From an uncultured Gammaproteobacteria bacterium (GTDB lineage: Bacteria > Patescibacteriota > Microgenomatia > Daviesbacterales > UBA10151), in the NCBI GenBank assembly GCA_964522265.1, contig CAZFVS010000018.1:1-13644 (forward strand): a DNA stretch of 13,644 bases, read 5' to 3'. Position 1 is the first letter of the stretch. Every line of letters begins with the position of its first letter. Below are positions 449-11,083 of the stretch, in pieces. A program made the translations under genes and the position numbers. A model generated the notes under the pieces. That model worked only from the letters and a program-made list of their open reading frames with translations. It was not told the origin of the DNA and did not search any database.

Positions 449-1039
449 ATGCAATACCTAATATTATTACTATCAGCTATAATATTGTTCTTAACTGCTT
501 CTATATCTGAAGTCTTTGCGATTGAAACGCCGAATTTCCCATCGTGTTCAAATCCTCAGGGGACAATTAAAAGTGATTATCCTGCAGGTACTCATGGTAT
601 TGCCGGAGACAGCAGGCAATTTTCAGGTAGTGATAAAGTTTACAGCTTGTCTGACAATACCCTTCAACAATGTTTTTGCTCAATCAATGGTGATGGAATC
701 CAGACAAACTGGTGGAAGATAGAATCTCTGACAGAAGATCAGATAGAGATTCTAAAAAGGGATGGATGGGTTTTTATCCCCAACGGCAGTCTTTGGGGAC
801 TGGAGGAAGCGTCGTATTTGGCCAAAAACAGCAATTACAGCTGCGGTGGGGGCGGAAATAATAGTGGCAGCAGCAATTCGGATTCATCAGGCAGTACCGG
901 GGGCGGAGAGGTTTTGGGAGCATCAATCAGTCTGCCAAAAACCGGGGCAGACGCCCGCTGGTTAATTATTGCTTCAGTTTCACTGATCTCAGGTCTGGTA
1001 ATACTTTTCAAGGGGTTAAGGTCAAAAAAGTCCCCTTGA
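449..1039 (+). CDS. secreted cell-wall-anchored surface protein (sortase substrate)
   Basis: N-terminal signal peptide (MQYLILLLSAIILFLTASISEVFA). Gly/Ser/Asn-rich linker. C-terminal sorting signal LPKTG (932-946), then a hydrophobic segment and the basic tail RSKKSP. Four Cys in the mature part. Confidence 0.85.
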   Translation: MQYLILLLSAIILFLTASISEVFAIETPNFPSCSNPQGTIKSDYPAGTHGIAGDSRQFSGSDKVYSLSDNTLQQCFCSINGDGIQTNWWKIESLTEDQIEILKRDGWVFIPNGSLWGLEEASYLAKNSNYSCGGGGNNSGSSNSDSSGSTGGGEVLGASISLPKTGADARWLIIASVSLISGLVILFKGLRSKKSP

Positions 1040-1611
1040 AAACCGTGTCTCTAGGTATTATTCTAATTCTTTTTTCACTTACTATTGCAGGACTTACTTT
1101 TTATCCCATGTTTATAGCAGAGCTTGGTTATCAGACCAGAACCCTGGTAAGCCAGTACCCACAAGATATTAATCCTATAAGTTCAGATTTTGGTATTGTG
1201 GTGCCCAAAATAGGGGCTAATTCACGCATCATTGCCAATGTTGACCCTATAAACGAGAAGGAATATCAATGGAGTTTAACACAGGGTATAGCCCATGCTA
1301 AAGGTACAGCCTTCCCTGGTCAAAACGGCAATGTTTTTTTATTCTCACACTCAGCCGCAAATTTTTATGAGGCAAGCCGTTTTAATGCAATCTTTTACCT
1401 GTTAAGTAAACTGGATAAAAATGATGAGGTAGACCTGTATTATAAAGGGGAAAAGTTTAAATACCGGGTTTCGGATAAAAAAATAGTTGACCCGAAAGAT
1501 GTTCAATACTTAAGAGGTGATTTTAACAGGCACACAGTAACTTTGATGACCTGTACTCCGCCCGGTACAAGCCTAAAAAGACTGCTGGTGATTGGAGAGC
1601 TTGGGAAATAG
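1036..1611 (+). CDS. sortase family transpeptidase
   Basis: N-terminal TM anchor. Has the FLFSHS His region, the TLMTCTP catalytic-Cys motif (TLxTC) and a downstream LKRLLV Arg. The TTG start overlaps the upstream TGA (TTGA, 1036-1039). A GTG at 1045 is an alternative start. Confidence 0.9.
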   Translation: MKTVSLGIILILFSLTIAGLTFYPMFIAELGYQTRTLVSQYPQDINPISSDFGIVVPKIGANSRIIANVDPINEKEYQWSLTQGIAHAKGTAFPGQNGNVFLFSHSAANFYEASRFNAIFYLLSKLDKNDEVDLYYKGEKFKYRVSDKKIVDPKDVQYLRGDFNRHTVTLMTCTPPGTSLKRLLVIGELGK

Positions 1612-1620
1612 CCTTTAACA

Positions 1621-1653
1621 TGAAAAAGGGCGCCGGAAAAATTCCCGGCGCCC
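1621..1653 (-). terminator. intrinsic terminator of the GC-rich mini-gene
   Basis: On the minus strand: GGGCGCCGG (1653-1645), 8-nt loop, CCGGCGCCC (1636-1628), followed by TTTTT (1627-1623). On the plus strand the stem is followed by GAAAGC, so it is a weaker terminator for the sortase operon. Confidence 0.7.
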
Positions 1654-1669
1654 GAAAGCTGCGGCTATA

Positions 1670-1861
1670 TCAATCCAGAAACTGTCCCGATGGATTCCTC
1701 CACCGGGGCAGTGAGGAGAGAGCTTCCCAATCCGGTTCAACTCCTTCGTACAGGAGTTCCTCCGGGAACTCGTCCCCTTCGGGCCAGTGGCCCTCCTCGG
1801 GTCCCAATGACCCCCAGATCTCATCCGAGATCTGCTGCGGTTCCCGACTCTCTGCGGACAT
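1670..1861 (-). CDS. hypothetical 63-aa hyper-acidic, Trp-rich small protein; coding status uncertain (could be a structured RNA)
   Basis: ATG at 1861 is preceded by AAAGGAGG (1873-1866) with a 4-nt gap. TGA at 1672-1670 lies 17 nt before the terminator stem. It has its own promoter. Product: MSAESREPQQISDEIWGSLGPEEGHWPEGDEFPEELLYEGVEPDWEALSSLPRWRNPSGQFLD. The ORF track starts 21 nt upstream at a TTG (1882), which lacks an SD. Confidence 0.5.
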   Translation of the reverse strand: MSAESREPQQISDEIWGSLGPEEGHWPEGDEFPEELLYEGVEPDWEALSSLPRWRNPSGQFLD

Positions 1862-1891
1862 GACGCCTCCTTTACTCCGCAACCTTTGATA

Positions 1892-1921
1892 AATATACCA
1901 AAACTATGGGTTGAATGTCAA
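1892..1921 (-). promoter_or_regulatory. near-consensus extended -10 promoter of the GC-rich mini-gene
   Basis: On the minus strand: TTGACA (1921-1916), 18-nt spacer ending in TGG, TATATT (1897-1892). It starts immediately after the stop of the upstream membrane-protein gene. Confidence 0.6.
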
Positions 1922-1922
1922 G

Positions 1923-2453
1923 TCAGCGGTAATCGAGATCGAGGAGTATAAAAAACACTACCATCCCGATTGTGACAAAAAACAACTGAAGCGGAAATCT
2001 TTTTTCTTTCACTACAACTTTTATGGAAGTAAAATAAAAATAAACAAGGAAGCTGGCAACGCAGTACATGTAGATTGCATGCCAAAGCCCCAATAAATTC
2101 CAGTGCCAGGGGGTAGGCATCGCCCAATTCACCAGTCCTTTTACAGCCTGGGTGATATTAAAATAAGCTGTCACGAAACCTCCTGAAATCAACGCATAAC
2201 CCAGGATTGTTTTCGTTAAATATTTTTTATGATTAATCAAAAAATATGCCGCTGTCATATTAACAACCGGTAAAATAATCCCGTCCCCAAAAATCGCCGA
2301 TTTGAAGGTTAAAGAGGTCCGAAGTGTTGCAACTATCGGTGAATCTGTCAAAATCAGATAATAATTATAAAGCGCCCCAGCGCCAAACCCGAAGAAAAAA
2401 GTAGCTGCTCCAACAGAGATTATAAGTGCCGGGTTTTTAAAGAAATTGGCCAT
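1923..2453 (-). CDS. hypothetical polytopic membrane protein
   Basis: 176-aa ORF with several long hydrophobic segments (for example ALIISVGAATFFFGFGAGALY and LFFVTIGMVVFFILL). No motif I recognise. Confidence 0.7.
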   Translation of the reverse strand: MANFFKNPALIISVGAATFFFGFGAGALYNYYLILTDSPIVATLRTSLTFKSAIFGDGIILPVVNMTAAYFLINHKKYLTKTILGYALISGGFVTAYFNITQAVKGLVNWAMPTPWHWNLLGLWHAIYMYCVASFLVYFYFTSIKVVVKEKRFPLQLFFVTIGMVVFFILLDLDYR

Positions 2454-8212: not shown

Positions 8213-8230
8213 TCACGCAAATTATTGCGC
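8204..8230. terminator. hairpin between convergent ispD-like and fic genes (possible bidirectional terminator)
   Basis: Perfect 10-bp inverted repeat GCGCAATAAT (8204-8213) / ATTATTGCGC (8221-8230) with the 7-nt loop CACGCAA. The arms contain the last codons and TAA stops of both genes (both end ...AQ*). There is no clean U-tract, so termination activity is uncertain. Confidence 0.45.
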
Positions 8231-9277
8231 AAGCAGGTAGTAAGTGCTGGGACCCTTACCGCAGGATTTGATGAGTTTTTTAAAAACAAGGCTCTTAAGT
8301 TTAAGCTGAGCAGTACGCTTGGCTATGCCTAAAACATCTTGGACGTCACTGCTGGTGATTTTTCCTGTTGTTGTCAGGAAATCCATGATTTGAAGTTCGT
8401 CTTTTGAGAGAAATACCTGTTCAGATTCGTCAGAAGCCCTGCCAAAACCTATTGAGGTGATCGCTTCCTCAACTTTTTGTGCCTCCGCCAAAAACCCCTG
8501 CACAAAATATTCAAGCCAGGATGTAATGTTTTCACCCTCATGGTATTTCCTGCCTTGAGCTGCATTCAGGGCATTATAATAGCTTAACCTATCACGGTTG
8601 TAATAATCCTCTAAAACTAAAATTTTACGGAAGTCCCAACCTTTTTGATAAAGGATTAATTGGGTCAGCAGCCTAGTCAGACGGCCGTTGCCATCAGAGA
8701 AGGGGTGAATGGTGACAAACTGCAGATGAAAAATCCCGGAAATTAAAATCGGGTGTATCTGCTCTTGCTCCGCCCTCTTGAGCCACTCCAAAAGCTCGTT
8801 TAAAAGAAAAGCTACTTTTTTTGAATCAGGGCCCCTGAAGCGCAGATGTTCTCTCCCGTCCCCCAGGTCATCCACCACAAAAATTGACCCGGGACGGAAA
8901 TGCCCGGTTTTATTGGGTTCCAGAAGGTTTTTCATTAAAATTTTATGGAGTTTTAGTATGAAAGAAAGCGATAAGACATGTGCATTAGAAAATTTCTCAA
9001 TTTCCATTAAAGCCTCCTGGTAGTTTTTCACCTCTAAAATACTTTTGTGGTCAGCAACCACTGACATTCCGGATAACACCTTGCCTACCTGAAACTCCGC
9101 CAATTTATTACCCTCAATAGAAGTAGAGGTATGGGCCATTCTTACTATTGCCTGCCTTCTTAGTTGGGCCTCGTTTAGGGGGAGCACCCGCGACCGTTCT
9201 ACTATAGCCTTGATCTCAGTTATTCCGGAGATGGAGTTCAGAAGCGTTGGGGTGATTATAAAATTAGGCCGGAACAT
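8222..9277 (-). CDS. fic: Fic family protein (class II, with N-terminal inhibitory motif and C-terminal winged-helix)
   Basis: HPFSDGNGRLTR matches the Fic core HxFx(D/E)GNGRxxR. STSIEG upstream matches the auto-inhibitory (S/T)xxxE(G/N) motif. The C-terminal about 70 aa (LQIMDFL...GKITSSDVQDVLGIAKRTAQLKLKSLV) looks like a wHTH. AAGGAG lies 3 nt before the ATG. Confidence 0.9.
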   Translation of the reverse strand: MFRPNFIITPTLLNSISGITEIKAIVERSRVLPLNEAQLRRQAIVRMAHTSTSIEGNKLAEFQVGKVLSGMSVVADHKSILEVKNYQEALMEIEKFSNAHVLSLSFILKLHKILMKNLLEPNKTGHFRPGSIFVVDDLGDGREHLRFRGPDSKKVAFLLNELLEWLKRAEQEQIHPILISGIFHLQFVTIHPFSDGNGRLTRLLTQLILYQKGWDFRKILVLEDYYNRDRLSYYNALNAAQGRKYHEGENITSWLEYFVQGFLAEAQKVEEAITSIGFGRASDESEQVFLSKDELQIMDFLTTTGKITSSDVQDVLGIAKRTAQLKLKSLVFKKLIKSCGKGPSTYYLLAQ

Positions 9278-10518: not shown

Positions 10519-10589
10519 TGCGGGATCGTCTAATGGTAGGACAACAGACTCTGGATCTGTTTATCTAGGTTCAAGTCCTAGTCCCGCAG
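10519..10589 (+). tRNA. tRNA-Gln (anticodon CUG)
   Basis: Hand-folded cloverleaf. Acceptor TGCGGGA/TCCCGCA with U1-A72 and discriminator G73. D stem GTCT/GGAC. Anticodon stem ACAGA/TCTGT with loop CTCTGGA. T arm CTAGG-TTCAAGT-CCTAG. CCA is not encoded. Confidence 0.9.
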
Positions 10590-10681
10590 CAAAAAATTTT
10601 CAATTTTTTGCAAGGGACCAGACGAGTAAAACGAGACTGAGTCCCGCAGCAGGGACGGCGTGTTGTCCCGCAGCAAAAAAA
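10581..10681 (+). repeat. three direct copies of the tRNA-Gln 3' end (att-like or scar repeats)
   Basis: GTCCCGCAGCA occurs at 10581-10591 (in the tRNA), 10641-10651 and 10665-10675. The first and third copies share 16 nt, GTCCCGCAGCAAAAAA. A 23-nt AT palindrome (10589-10611) follows the tRNA. Confidence 0.85.
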
Positions 10682-10753: not shown

Positions 10754-11083
10754 ATGACTGATAAAGATTTCAAAAAGATAGGCAGCTTGCTTGATGAGAA
10801 GTTAATGACATCTGAAAAAAGAATTATGGGTGAGTTAATGACATCTGAAAAAAGAATTATGGGTGAGTTAATGACATCTGAAAAAAGAATTATGGGTGAG
10901 ATAGCAGATTTTATAGATCAGAATCTGCTTCCTCAAATAGCAGAAAAGGCAGATAAAACTGATATCGACCGTTTGGAGAGAAAGCTGGATAAAATATTTG
11001 ACAAGGATTTTGAACAAGACAGGAGATTAGATGAAATTGAGTCTGTTTCCGTCGTTGCTCATGAACTAAAAATTAAAAAATGA
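10754..11083 (+). CDS. hypothetical small coiled-coil protein with an internal 11-aa x3 repeat
   Basis: 109-aa ORF. LMTSEKRIMGE is repeated three times, followed by a charged helical tail (DIDRLERKLDKIFDKDFEQDRRLDEIE). Confidence 0.7.
   Translation: MTDKDFKKIGSLLDEKLMTSEKRIMGELMTSEKRIMGELMTSEKRIMGEIADFIDQNLLPQIAEKADKTDIDRLERKLDKIFDKDFEQDRRLDEIESVSVVAHELKIKK
10801..10899 (+). repeat. perfect 33-bp tandem repeat, 3 copies, in frame
   Basis: GTTAATGACATCTGAAAAAAGAATTATGGGTGA at 10801-10833, 10834-10866 and 10867-10899, with no mismatch. Confidence 0.97.

What the first reader, a model, noticed from the sequence alone, without database searches (positions are those of the whole stretch)
1621..1921. 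Autonomous 60 % GC mini-gene in AT-rich DNA: hyper-acidic Trp-rich 63-aa protein or a structured RNA
**Gene signals.** A complete transcription unit fits into about 300 bp:
- promoter TTGACA-18-TGgTATATT
- AAAGGAGG 4 nt before the ATG at 1861
- TGA at 1670
- a 9-bp GC stem plus T5 terminator

**Composition.** By hand count the 192-nt ORF is 115/192 G+C. Of the 62 codons after the ATG, 41 end in G or C. Flanking genes are clearly AT-rich. All three frames listed in the ORF track are open here.

**Predicted product.** It has 16 D/E against 3 R, no K, 4 Trp, no TM segment and no signal peptide.

**Hairpins inside the ORF.**
- 1681-1689/1704-1712: 9 bp. One pair is G.U only in plus-sense RNA.
- 1739-1745/1752-1758 and 1754-1760/1765-1771: these share GAGTT and are mutually exclusive.
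- 1815-1822/1827-1834: 8 bp.

**Interpretation.** One possibility is a horizontally acquired small acidic protein. Its charge profile is in the range of DNA-mimic or anti-defence proteins, which is pure speculation. The other is a structured RNA whose ORF is incidental.
Basis: partly seen in the sequence, partly recalled or inferred. Interest (0 to 1): 0.7.

Follow-up and report, generated by a model that had tools for sequence, protein, structure and literature searches.

The report
Small acidic protein gene, hairpin-rich mRNA
This is a real gene for a tiny, very acidic, mostly unstructured protein found so far in only four closely related groundwater-type bacteria (Candidatus Daviesbacteria); its unusual G+C richness goes with a hairpin-packed messenger RNA, and its function is unknown.

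Summary
These are the near-consensus promoter, the strong ribosome-binding site, the 63-codon ORF (1861-1670, minus strand), the terminator, 60 % GC, the acidic Trp-rich product and the hairpins.

The ORF is not incidental and not a true orphan. Single-sequence searches found nothing, but synteny found three orthologues in related Daviesbacteria contigs. All lie in the same slot, after a conserved membrane-protein gene and before a convergent sortase gene. They share the core LGYGPxFDEFPEELxYEGxxEPDWGALSQF.

Evidence for coding:
- Synonymous differences exceed non-synonymous ones only in this frame.
- All indels are whole codons.

The high GC, including GC3 of 0.63-0.71 against 0.22-0.47 in host genes, is kept in all four orthologues although synonymous sites are saturated. 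Each mRNA folds more stably than codon-permuted versions of itself (z -2.5 to -3.5; host controls average -0.3). A helix joining the 5' UTR to the region just after the stop codon recurs with different sequences.

So this is a protein gene whose mRNA structure also appears to be selected. Recent horizontal transfer and a DNA-mimic or anti-defence role have no support. Function is unknown; I infer a disordered partner-binding protein, possibly envelope-related.

The parts
1892..1921 (-). Sigma-70-type promoter: -35 TTGACA (1921-1916), 18-nt spacer containing CCCATAGT, extended -10 TGgTATATT (1900-1892). It starts 1 nt after the stop codon of the upstream membrane-protein gene.
   Evidence: Scores 11/12 with TG. 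The -35, the spacer motif CCCATAGT and the -10 are conserved in L001, L004 and L030, and partly in L027.
1877..1886 (-). 5' arm of the closing helix (AAGGUUGCGG), ending 3 nt before the ribosome-binding site.
   Evidence: Pairs with 1664-1655 in both the MFE and centroid folds, with pair probability 0.93-0.99. The equivalent helix in L001 is 15 bp at z -6.3, and in L030 p = 0.01. In the window alone it is not significant against shuffles (p = 0.14).
1866..1873 (-). Shine-Dalgarno sequence AAAGGAGG, 4 nt before the ATG.
   Evidence: Read from the sequence. Predicted mostly unpaired, mean 0.72. Orthologues have AAGGAGG or GGAG at the same distance.
1670..1861 (-). Coding sequence of the 63-aa acidic protein MSAESREPQQISDEIWGSLGPEEGHWPEGDEFPEELLYEGVEPDWEALSSLPRWRNPSGQFLD, stop codon included.
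   Evidence: Translation. Orthologues are L001 4788-4988, L004 2841-3044 and L030 1140-1346. In the core, pS is 0.55-0.96 against pN 0.28-0.38, and shifted frames show no such excess.
1703..1792 (-). Conserved core of the protein, residues G24-R53: GHWPEGDEFPEELLYEGVEPDWEALSSLPR. It holds the acidic-aromatic motif and the only predicted helix (residues 45-49).
   Evidence: Alignments A2 and A5 and the manual colinear alignment. AlphaFold gives pLDDT 71-77 here and 52-56 in the N-terminal 30 residues.
1655..1664 (-). 3' arm of the closing helix (CCGCAGCUUU), 5 nt after the stop codon.
   Evidence: It occupies the same position as the conserved 3' element CAACAACTGAATA of L001, L004 and L030.
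1623..1653 (-). Intrinsic terminator: 11-bp stem GGGCGCCGGGA/TTCCGGCGCCC (9 G-C pairs), 4-nt loop, T5. It faces the convergent sortase gene, which ends at 1611.
   Evidence: Equivalent GC hairpins follow the gene in L001 and L004 and in L030 (sequence).
1923..2453 (-). Context: upstream 176-aa multi-pass membrane protein of unknown family (P0005). It has no terminator of its own, so the small gene may also be reached by read-through.
   Evidence: 188 homologues in Microgenomates-type genomes and no Pfam match. It is the anchor for the synteny.

Best explanation
The unit at 1921-1623 (minus strand) is a genuine monocistronic gene in a Candidatus Daviesbacteria (Microgenomates/CPR) genome.

**Shown**
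- It encodes a 63-aa, strongly acidic, Trp/aromatic-rich cytoplasmic protein. This belongs to a previously unrecognised family with four members so far.
- The family is defined by the core LGYGPxFDEFPEELxYEGxxEPDWGALSQ[FL]xR and is kept by purifying selection on the protein.
- Its mRNA is unusually G+C-rich at synonymous sites. It folds into a chain of short GC hairpins.
- In every orthologue this mRNA is more stable than the protein sequence and codon composition require.

**Predicted**
- A helix pairs the 5' UTR, just upstream of the ribosome-binding site, with the sequence just after the stop codon and next to the terminator.

**Inferred**
- The structure mainly protects both ends of a strongly transcribed short mRNA. 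It raises the message's stability rather than blocking translation, because the ribosome-binding site is predicted to stay accessible.
- The protein is largely disordered. It probably acts by binding a partner through its two short conserved motifs: the acidic DEFPEEL stretch and the short EPDW-ALS helix.
- The most plausible partners are envelope-associated. Candidates are the small membrane peptides that share the operon in two relatives, the conserved upstream membrane protein, or the neighbouring sortase system.
For: **Gene signals and their conservation**
- establish the signals. Searches show they are conserved.

**Orthologues in one syntenic slot**
- Found in L001, L004 and L030.
- A profile of the family hits only these among six-frame ORFs of 70 sequence records, the loci plus the window.

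**Coding signature**
- Core pS 0.72/0.96/0.55 against pN 0.28/0.38/0.36.
- Third-position differences are about twice those at first or second positions.
- Shifted frames give pS <= pN in eight of nine comparisons and a much smaller excess in the ninth. All indels are whole codons.

**Composition**
- GC 0.57-0.60 and GC3 0.63-0.71 in all four orthologues, against 0.22-0.47 in host genes, despite saturated synonymous sites.

**mRNA structure**
- Dinucleotide-shuffle z of -3.1, -4.7 and -3.0 for the coding regions, and -5.1, -7.4 and -5.2 for whole transcripts.
- Synonymous-codon permutation z of -2.57, -2.45, -2.76 and -3.5. Twenty host-gene control segments averaged -0.31 (sd 1.0, minimum -2.48).
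- Hairpins fall at homologous codons. GGGCC-ACU-GGCCC, UUGGGC-UACG-GCCCAA and CUGGGC-UACG-GCCCGG lie over the G-[HY]-[WG]-P codons. GAGUUCC/GGAACUC, GAGUUCC/GGAGCUC and GACGAAUUCC/GGAAUUCGUC lie over D-E-F-P-E-E-[LF].
- End-to-end helix: pair probability above 0.9 in the window and 1.0 in L001. The arm sequences differ between the two.

**Disorder**
- Mean pLDDT 63, with one helix at residues 45-49.

**Operon partners**
- Small TM ORFs precede the acidic gene in L004 and L030. L027 has a small TM ORF alone.
Against: - Only four family members are known, so the selection tests rest on six pairwise comparisons of short, saturated sequences.
- The codon alignment was guided by the protein alignment, which favours low pN.
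- There is no expression, proteomic or ribosome-profiling evidence.
- The window's own closing helix is not significant against shuffled partners (p = 0.14).
- Hairpin positions are only partly shared, and L001 differs.
- A mutational process that creates local palindromes could mimic selection for structure.
- The proposed partner binding and envelope link are inference from context only. The acidic gene and the TM-peptide genes each also occur alone.
Confidence: 0.6

Rival explanations
1. Dual-function RNA. The transcript is both an mRNA for the acidic protein and a structured regulatory or scaffold RNA with its own activity, for example base-pairing or protein sequestration.
For: GC3 and excess folding stability are conserved in all four orthologues beyond what the protein needs. 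The closed, hairpin-rich architecture resembles stable RNAs. Some amino-acid changes extend hairpins; L->F and Q/L->V in L030 make a perfect 10-bp palindrome.
Against: No Rfam family matches. No conserved single-stranded loop or seed sequence was identified. Hairpin positions are only partly conserved. mRNA stabilisation explains the structure more simply.
Confidence: 0.15
2. Part or remnant of a type-I-toxin-like small-gene cassette. The ancestral unit is a locked, stable mRNA for small membrane peptides. The acidic protein is an accessory such as an immunity or neutralising factor, and it has been retained alone in the window.
For: The cassette frame is shared: promoter, 5' element GCACATTCACA, 3' element CAACAACTGAATA and terminator. 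The ORF content is modular. L027 has a 31-aa TM peptide only, L004 has a TM peptide plus the acidic protein, and L030 has two TM peptides plus the acidic protein. A 5'-3' long-distance pairing is a hallmark of hok and aapA1 toxin mRNAs (PMC5416894). In L030 the 5' arm overlaps the first ribosome-binding site.
Against: The window and L001 carry no hydrophobic peptide. No conserved antisense promoter or sRNA was found. The ribosome-binding site of the acidic gene is predicted accessible. Toxicity is untested. Small TM peptides are common and not necessarily toxins.
Confidence: 0.1
3. Structured non-coding RNA whose ORF is incidental.
For: Strong folding z-scores on both strands. High GC in an AT-rich genome is typical of structured RNAs. 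The protein has no detectable homologue outside four genomes.
Against: The same frame is open, with a good ribosome-binding site and start, in all four orthologues. Other frames are not consistently open. Differences concentrate at third codon positions, indels are whole codons, and amino-acid motifs are kept through synonymous changes. There is no Rfam match.
Confidence: 0.05
4. Recently acquired foreign gene from a phage or mobile element, encoding a DNA-mimic or anti-defence protein.
For: Atypical composition. Net charge is about -13 (16 D/E against 3 R). The family has a narrow distribution.
Against: It has a fixed syntenic position with no mobile-element genes nearby. The composition is maintained across saturated divergence. 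No relative was found in phages, plasmids, IMG/VR or PHROGs. There is no PDB homologue and no confident fold. The net charge is not conserved; by count from the sequences it is about -10 in L004 and -4 in L001.
Confidence: 0.05

Closest known systems
Type I toxin mRNAs with 5'-3' long-distance interaction (hok/Sok; aapA1/IsoA1 of Helicobacter pylori, PMC5416894)
   Same: A short, strongly transcribed, highly structured mRNA of 250-330 nt. Its 5' UTR pairs with the extreme 3' end next to a terminator. Relatives of the cassette encode 31-58-aa single-pass membrane peptides.
   Different: The window's product is acidic and soluble, not a hydrophobic toxin. The ribosome-binding site is not predicted to be sequestered. 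No antisense RNA gene was detected. No sequence homology was found.
Small acidic DNA-mimic / anti-restriction proteins (Ocr, ArdA, Ugi, and acidic anti-CRISPRs such as AcrIIA4)
   Same: Small size and a large excess of Asp/Glu over Lys/Arg in the window protein.
   Different: Those proteins are compactly folded with ordered arrays of carboxylates and are carried by phages or plasmids (my own knowledge). This protein is predicted to be mostly disordered and has no PDB or PHROG match. It sits in a chromosomal syntenic slot, and its net charge varies from about -13 to -4 among orthologues (counted).
GC-rich intergenic structured RNAs of AT-rich genomes (the class targeted by GC-content/IGR-length searches; my own knowledge)
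   Same: A 60 % GC island of about 270 nt with its own promoter and terminator in a 39 % GC genome. Folding z-scores are strongly negative.
   Different: It is translated sequence by every comparative criterion available. No Rfam family matches.
Lineage-restricted small proteins / intrinsically disordered acidic adaptor proteins acting through short linear motifs
   Same: About 65 aa with low-confidence structure. The N-terminus evolves fast, while two short motifs and a narrow phylogenetic range are conserved.
   Different: No partner is known. The conserved synonymous GC enrichment and the excess mRNA structure are not usual attributes of such genes.

Membership tests
Protein-coding gene (generic comparative criteria) | The same frame is open with start and ribosome-binding site in orthologues, and indels are multiples of three. 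| tested here: met
   Four orthologues of 63-68 aa, each with AAGGAGG or GGAG 4-6 nt before the start. All alignment gaps are whole codons.
Protein-coding gene (generic comparative criteria) | An excess of synonymous over non-synonymous change, specific to the annotated frame. | tested here: met
   Core pS 0.55-0.96 against pN 0.28-0.38. In the +1 and +2 frames pS <= pN in eight of nine comparisons. Caveat: the alignment was guided by the protein.
Any Rfam RNA family | A covariance-model score at or above the gathering threshold. | tested here: not met
   Only a tRNA elsewhere in the window passes. The best local match is ctRNA_pGA1 at 19.7 bits against a threshold of 45, and it lies over the terminator.
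Type I toxin-antitoxin system | A small hydrophobic membrane-active toxin peptide. | tested here: not met
   The window ORF has no hydrophobic segment. TM peptides exist only in the relatives L004, L027 and L030.
Type I toxin-antitoxin system | An antisense or overlapping sRNA antitoxin gene. | tested here: inconclusive
   No conserved antisense promoter was found in the window, L001, L004 or L030 by consensus scan. A scan cannot exclude one.
Type I toxin-antitoxin system | A 5'-3' long-distance interaction that sequesters the Shine-Dalgarno sequence. | tested here: inconclusive
   The helix is predicted, with probability above 0.9. However, the SD has mean unpaired probability 0.72 in the window. 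In L030 the arm does overlap the first SD.
DNA-mimic / anti-defence proteins | Sequence or structural homology to a known member, or a confident fold displaying a DNA-like charge array. | tested here: not met
   No match in PDB sequences, PHROGs, Pfam or NCBIfam. The AlphaFold model has pLDDT 63 and pTM 0.24 with one 5-residue helix.
DNA-mimic / anti-defence proteins | Binding to and inhibition of a DNA-binding defence enzyme. | not testable with these tools
   This needs biochemistry.
Recently horizontally acquired island | Atypical composition together with patchy or non-syntenic distribution, or mobile-element neighbours. | tested here: not met
   Composition is atypical. But the position is syntenic in four or five related genomes with no mobile-element genes next to it, and the GC3 is maintained across saturated divergence.

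The most novel reading that the evidence does not exclude
A subclade of Daviesbacteria carries a modular 'locked-mRNA' small-gene cassette. The frame is conserved: a consensus promoter, a 5'-3' closing helix and a terminator. Small membrane peptides and/or a disordered acidic protein are exchanged within it. Selection acts at once on the peptide sequence and on the RNA fold. The acidic protein would be the soluble partner (neutraliser or regulator) of the membrane peptides. This would be a protein-plus-RNA-structure-controlled relative of type I toxin systems in CPR bacteria.
Probability: 0.12. Interest if true: 0.7.

Novelty: new variant of a known kind. Interest (0 to 1): 0.4.

Why it matters
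The finding adds a conserved small-protein family in CPR bacteria, whose genomes are full of unannotated small ORFs. Single-sequence searches of 5.8 and 1.8 billion proteins called it an orphan. Synteny recovered the family, which is a useful caution for orphan calls on proteins of about 60 aa.

It is also a clean natural example of a coding sequence under double constraint from the peptide and the mRNA secondary structure. GC-rich synonymous sites are maintained against the genome's AT bias. If the cassette idea holds, it would point to RNA-structure-controlled small-peptide modules in an uncultivated phylum. As it stands, the biological role is unknown and the family is tiny, so the impact is modest.

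Tried and rejected
**Searches that found no relative or known family**
- Rfam at gathering and at permissive thresholds gave nothing relevant.
- A single-sequence search of 5.8 billion proteins returned only the query itself.
- An exhaustive phmmer of 1.84 billion representatives returned the query plus three repetitive proteins (P0002-P0004). Their E-values come from summed weak repeats and they are not homologues.
- The exact-sequence contig look-up for the window protein is not on record.
- A profile search of the protein database returned only the three already known members.
- Pattern and tblastn scans found no relatives in JGI metagenome contigs, IMG/VR, GenBank phages or PLSDB plasmids.
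- Pfam, PHROGs, NCBIfam and PDB sequences gave no match.

**Structure**
- It was rerun with A4 and gave a low-confidence model. I therefore did not run fold searches, which would have been meaningless.

**Wider sampling**
- Twenty more distant Microgenomates loci carry the membrane-protein homologue. Several others have an MFS transporter or other genes downstream. None has the cassette.
- A metagenome scan with the promoter pattern returned 37 loci. None holds the acidic protein or the membrane protein.

**Other checks**
- Consensus scans found no conserved antisense promoter.
- The automatic DNA alignment of the three cassettes was not codon-aware, so I replaced it with a manual colinear codon alignment.
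- The first MAFFT protein alignments placed an 8-residue gap that is not needed. The QIS tripeptide and the G-x-x-P motif align colinearly without it.
Full report
**1. Observation**

- **Promoter.** TTGACA (1921-1916), an 18-nt spacer, then TGgTATATT (1900-1892). It scores 11/12 with an extended -10 and is the best promoter-like site in the region.
- **Translation signals.** AAAGGAGG lies 4 nt before the ATG at 1861. The ORF has 63 codons and ends at TGA 1672-1670.
- **Terminator.** The hairpin 1653-1628 has 11 pairs, 9 of them G-C, followed by T5.
- **Composition.** The ORF is 59.9 % GC with GC3 of 0.66, in a window of 39 % GC. Fifteen larger host ORFs have GC3 of 0.22-0.47.
- **Codon choice.** With host codon usage for the same amino acids, 22.8 of 58 degenerate codons should end in G/C. 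The observed number is 37 (p = 1.5e-4).
- **Product.** 16 D/E, 3 R, no K and 4 W.
- **Hairpins.** The named hairpins exist.

**2. Organism and context**

The upstream gene (1923-2453, minus strand) encodes a 176-aa multi-pass membrane protein without a Pfam family. Its closest relatives are annotated as Candidatus Daviesbacteria or Microgenomates.

Downstream, a sortase gene (1036-1611) converges on the unit. Before the sortase gene lies a gene for a protein with a signal peptide and an LPKTG sorting signal. No gene suggestive of a mobile element lies next to the unit.

**3. The protein is not an orphan**

Single-sequence searches returned only the query itself, or the query plus three repetitive false positives.

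Following the membrane protein into related contigs gave a different picture. In GCA_016186955.1 (L001, membrane protein 76 % identical), a small ORF sits in the same slot between the membrane-protein gene and the sortase gene. The same holds in Logan contig L004 (73 %). In Logan contig L030 (66 %) the ORF follows the membrane-protein gene, but the contig ends before any sortase gene could be seen.

The products are 63-68 aa and share this core with the window protein: LGYGPxFDEFPEELxYEGxxEPDWGALSQ[FL]xR.

The family appears confined to one Daviesbacteria subclade:
- A profile of the family hits only these ORFs among all six-frame ORFs of 70 sequence records (the loci plus the window).
- The same profile finds nothing more in the 5.8-billion-protein database.
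- JGI metagenome contigs, IMG/VR, phages and plasmids gave no relatives.
- More distant relatives of the membrane protein (<= 63 % identity) have other genes downstream, such as an MFS transporter.

**4. Coding or RNA?**

I built a colinear codon alignment. In the 30-codon core, the proportion of synonymous differences is 0.72, 0.96 and 0.55 for three pairs. The non-synonymous proportions for the same pairs are 0.28, 0.38 and 0.36. Third positions differ about twice as often as first or second positions.

When the same columns are read in the +1 or +2 frame, the excess disappears. All indels are whole codons.

Only this frame is open, with a ribosome-binding site, in all four genomes. The other long ORFs of the region are not conserved. 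They are the expected by-product of GC-rich DNA, because stop codons are AT-rich.

No Rfam family matches. I conclude that the ORF is translated and under purifying selection. That selection is weak outside the core, where overall pairwise identity is 25-44 %.

Caveats: there are four sequences, the sites are saturated, and the alignment was guided by the protein.

**5. The composition is maintained, not imported**

All four orthologues have GC of 0.57-0.60 and GC3 of 0.63-0.71. Their neighbours have GC3 of 0.34-0.43.

Synonymous sites between the orthologues are saturated. An un-ameliorated foreign composition would have decayed by now. Something therefore keeps G/C at silent sites. Together with the fixed syntenic position and the conserved promoter, this argues against recent horizontal transfer.

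**6. The mRNA is selected for structure**

| Test | Result |
|---|---|
| Dinucleotide-shuffle z, coding regions with short flanks | -3.1, -4.7, -3.0 |
| Dinucleotide-shuffle z, whole predicted transcripts | -5.1 (window), -7.4 (L001), -5.2 (L004) |
| Synonymous-codon permutation z, four orthologues | -2.57, -2.45, -2.76, -3.5 |
| Same permutation test, 20 host-gene segments of equal length | mean -0.31, sd 1.0, minimum -2.48 |

The permutation test is the stricter one. It permutes synonymous codons among positions of the same amino acid, so the protein sequence and the codon composition are both kept.

Several hairpins sit at homologous codons:
- **Over G-[HY]-[WG]-P:** GGGCC-ACU-GGCCC (window), UUGGGC-UACG-GCCCAA (L004) and CUGGGC-UACG-GCCCGG (L030).
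- **Over D-E-F-P-E-E-[LF]:** GAGUUCC/GGAACUC (window) and GAGUUCC/GGAGCUC (L004).
- **In L030:** a perfect 10-bp GACGAAUUCC/GGAAUUCGUC. Here the amino-acid changes L->F and Q/L->V lengthen the stem.

L001 has hairpins of similar quality, but they are shifted.

The antisense strand folds equally well, as palindromes must. Folding alone therefore does not identify the strand. The promoter, the terminator polarity and the ORF do.

**7. A closing helix**

In the window, AAGGUUGCGG (1886-1877, just before the SD) pairs with CCGCAGCUUU (1664-1655, just after the stop codon). This pairing appears in both the MFE and the centroid fold, with pair probability 0.93-0.99.

- **L001:** a 15-bp helix of different sequence (GCAUAUUCAGUUGUG/CAACAACUGAAUAUGC) occupies the same topological position. 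Its z is -6.3 against shuffled partners and its pair probability is 1.0.
- **L030 and L004:** the conserved 5' element GCACAUUCACA pairs with the conserved 3' element CAACAACUGAAUA-UAGUG (p = 0.01 and p = 0.05).
- **Window alone:** the duplex is not significant (p = 0.14). I rate the helix as probable rather than proven.

The SD is predicted to be mostly single-stranded (0.72). I therefore read the architecture as protecting the transcript ends and stabilising the message, not as a translational lock.

**8. A modular cassette**

The frame is conserved across the orthologous loci: the promoter with spacer motif CCCATAGT, the arms and the terminator. The ORF content varies.

| Locus | ORF content |
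|---|---|
| Window, L001 | acidic protein only |
| L004 | 44-aa single-pass membrane peptide, then the acidic protein |
| L030 | 58-aa and about 52-aa membrane peptides, then the acidic protein |
| L027 | 31-aa membrane peptide only |

This modularity recalls type I toxin mRNAs such as hok and aapA1, together with the end-to-end pairing. In the full-length aapA1 mRNA a 5'-3' long-distance interaction sequesters the SD, and 3' processing activates the message (PMC5416894).

The defining features of type I systems are not met here. The product is not hydrophobic, no antisense promoter is conserved, and the SD is accessible. I keep this reading as a low-probability rival and as the 'novel case'.

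**9. The protein**

AlphaFold with the three admissible sequences gives mean pLDDT 63 and pTM 0.24. The only secondary-structure element is a helix at residues 45-49 (W-E-A-L-S). The N-terminal 30 residues have pLDDT 52-56.

No match was found in PDB sequences, Pfam, PHROGs or NCBIfam. By count from the sequences, net charge is about -13 in the window protein, -10 in L004 and -4 in L001. L001 has a basic N-terminus. Extreme acidity is therefore not the conserved property. The two short motifs are.

The best mechanistic guess is a disordered protein that binds a partner through those motifs. Genomic context suggests the partner is envelope-related. This step is inference. The DNA-mimic or anti-defence idea has no support.

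**10. Verdict**

It is a real, lineage-restricted small-protein gene and not an incidental ORF. It shows no sign of being a recent import. It has an unusual and apparently selected hairpin-rich, end-paired mRNA. Function is unknown. Interest is moderate at 0.4.

Noticed in passing
window 1892-1921 (-); L033-L069: The promoter has a specific spacer: TTGACA-NNNA[AC]CCCATAGT-N4-5-TATANT. This pattern has 37 exact matches in JGI metagenome contigs, and none lies next to the acidic protein or the membrane protein. One subgroup shares TTGACAAnnAACCCATAGTnnnTATATAATCCGCnnCAATATG, with ORFs starting almost at the transcription start. One 66 % GC contig (L041) appears to drive an SRP-RNA-like sequence, and L061 a cobalamin-riboswitch-like leader. 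It may be a general promoter flavour or partly chance.
   Followed up: partly
window 449-1611 (+): This is a sortase (Pfam PF04203) preceded by its probable substrate. The substrate is a 196-aa protein with a signal peptide, a Gly/Ser-rich 48-52 % GC segment (about 700-1000) and a C-terminal LPKTG + TM + RSKK sorting signal. The pair is conserved next to the cassette in L001 and L027.
   Followed up: partly
L030 777-1111; L004 2670-2804; L027 2201-2296: Small single- or double-pass membrane peptides (31-58 aa) are encoded inside the same promoter-terminator frame, upstream of or instead of the acidic gene. The L004 and L030 peptides look related (MD...TM...IL-D-I/L-K...PD tail).
   Followed up: partly
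L030 about 700-735: The 5' leader of the L030 cassette holds a terminator-like hairpin, AACCCA-N9-TGGGTTTTTT. It lies between the promoter and the first small ORF and could be an attenuator.
   Followed up: no
L001 4565-4645: In L001 an extra GC-rich segment of about 90 nt separates the membrane-protein stop codon from the cassette promoter. It carries an 11-bp inverted repeat (CACCTGGAAGG...CCTTCCAGGTG). The other genomes lack it.
   Followed up: no
window 10754-11083 (+): This 109-aa ORF has three perfect tandem copies of LMTSEKRIMGE, a 33-nt repeat, just downstream of tRNA-Gln(CTG) at 10519-10590.
   Followed up: no
window 8222-9277 (-): This 351-aa ORF carries the Fic motif HPFSDGNGR and a C-terminal winged-helix-like tail. 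I identified it by eye from the translation only.
   Followed up: no
window 1859-1834, 1664-1655 (-): The hexamer CCGCAG occurs three times in the transcript: at codons 2-3, at codons 8-9 and just after the stop codon. Each copy can pair with the 5' UTR GUUGCGG, so alternative pairings are possible. One of them would place the SD and AUG in a 17-nt loop.
   Followed up: partly
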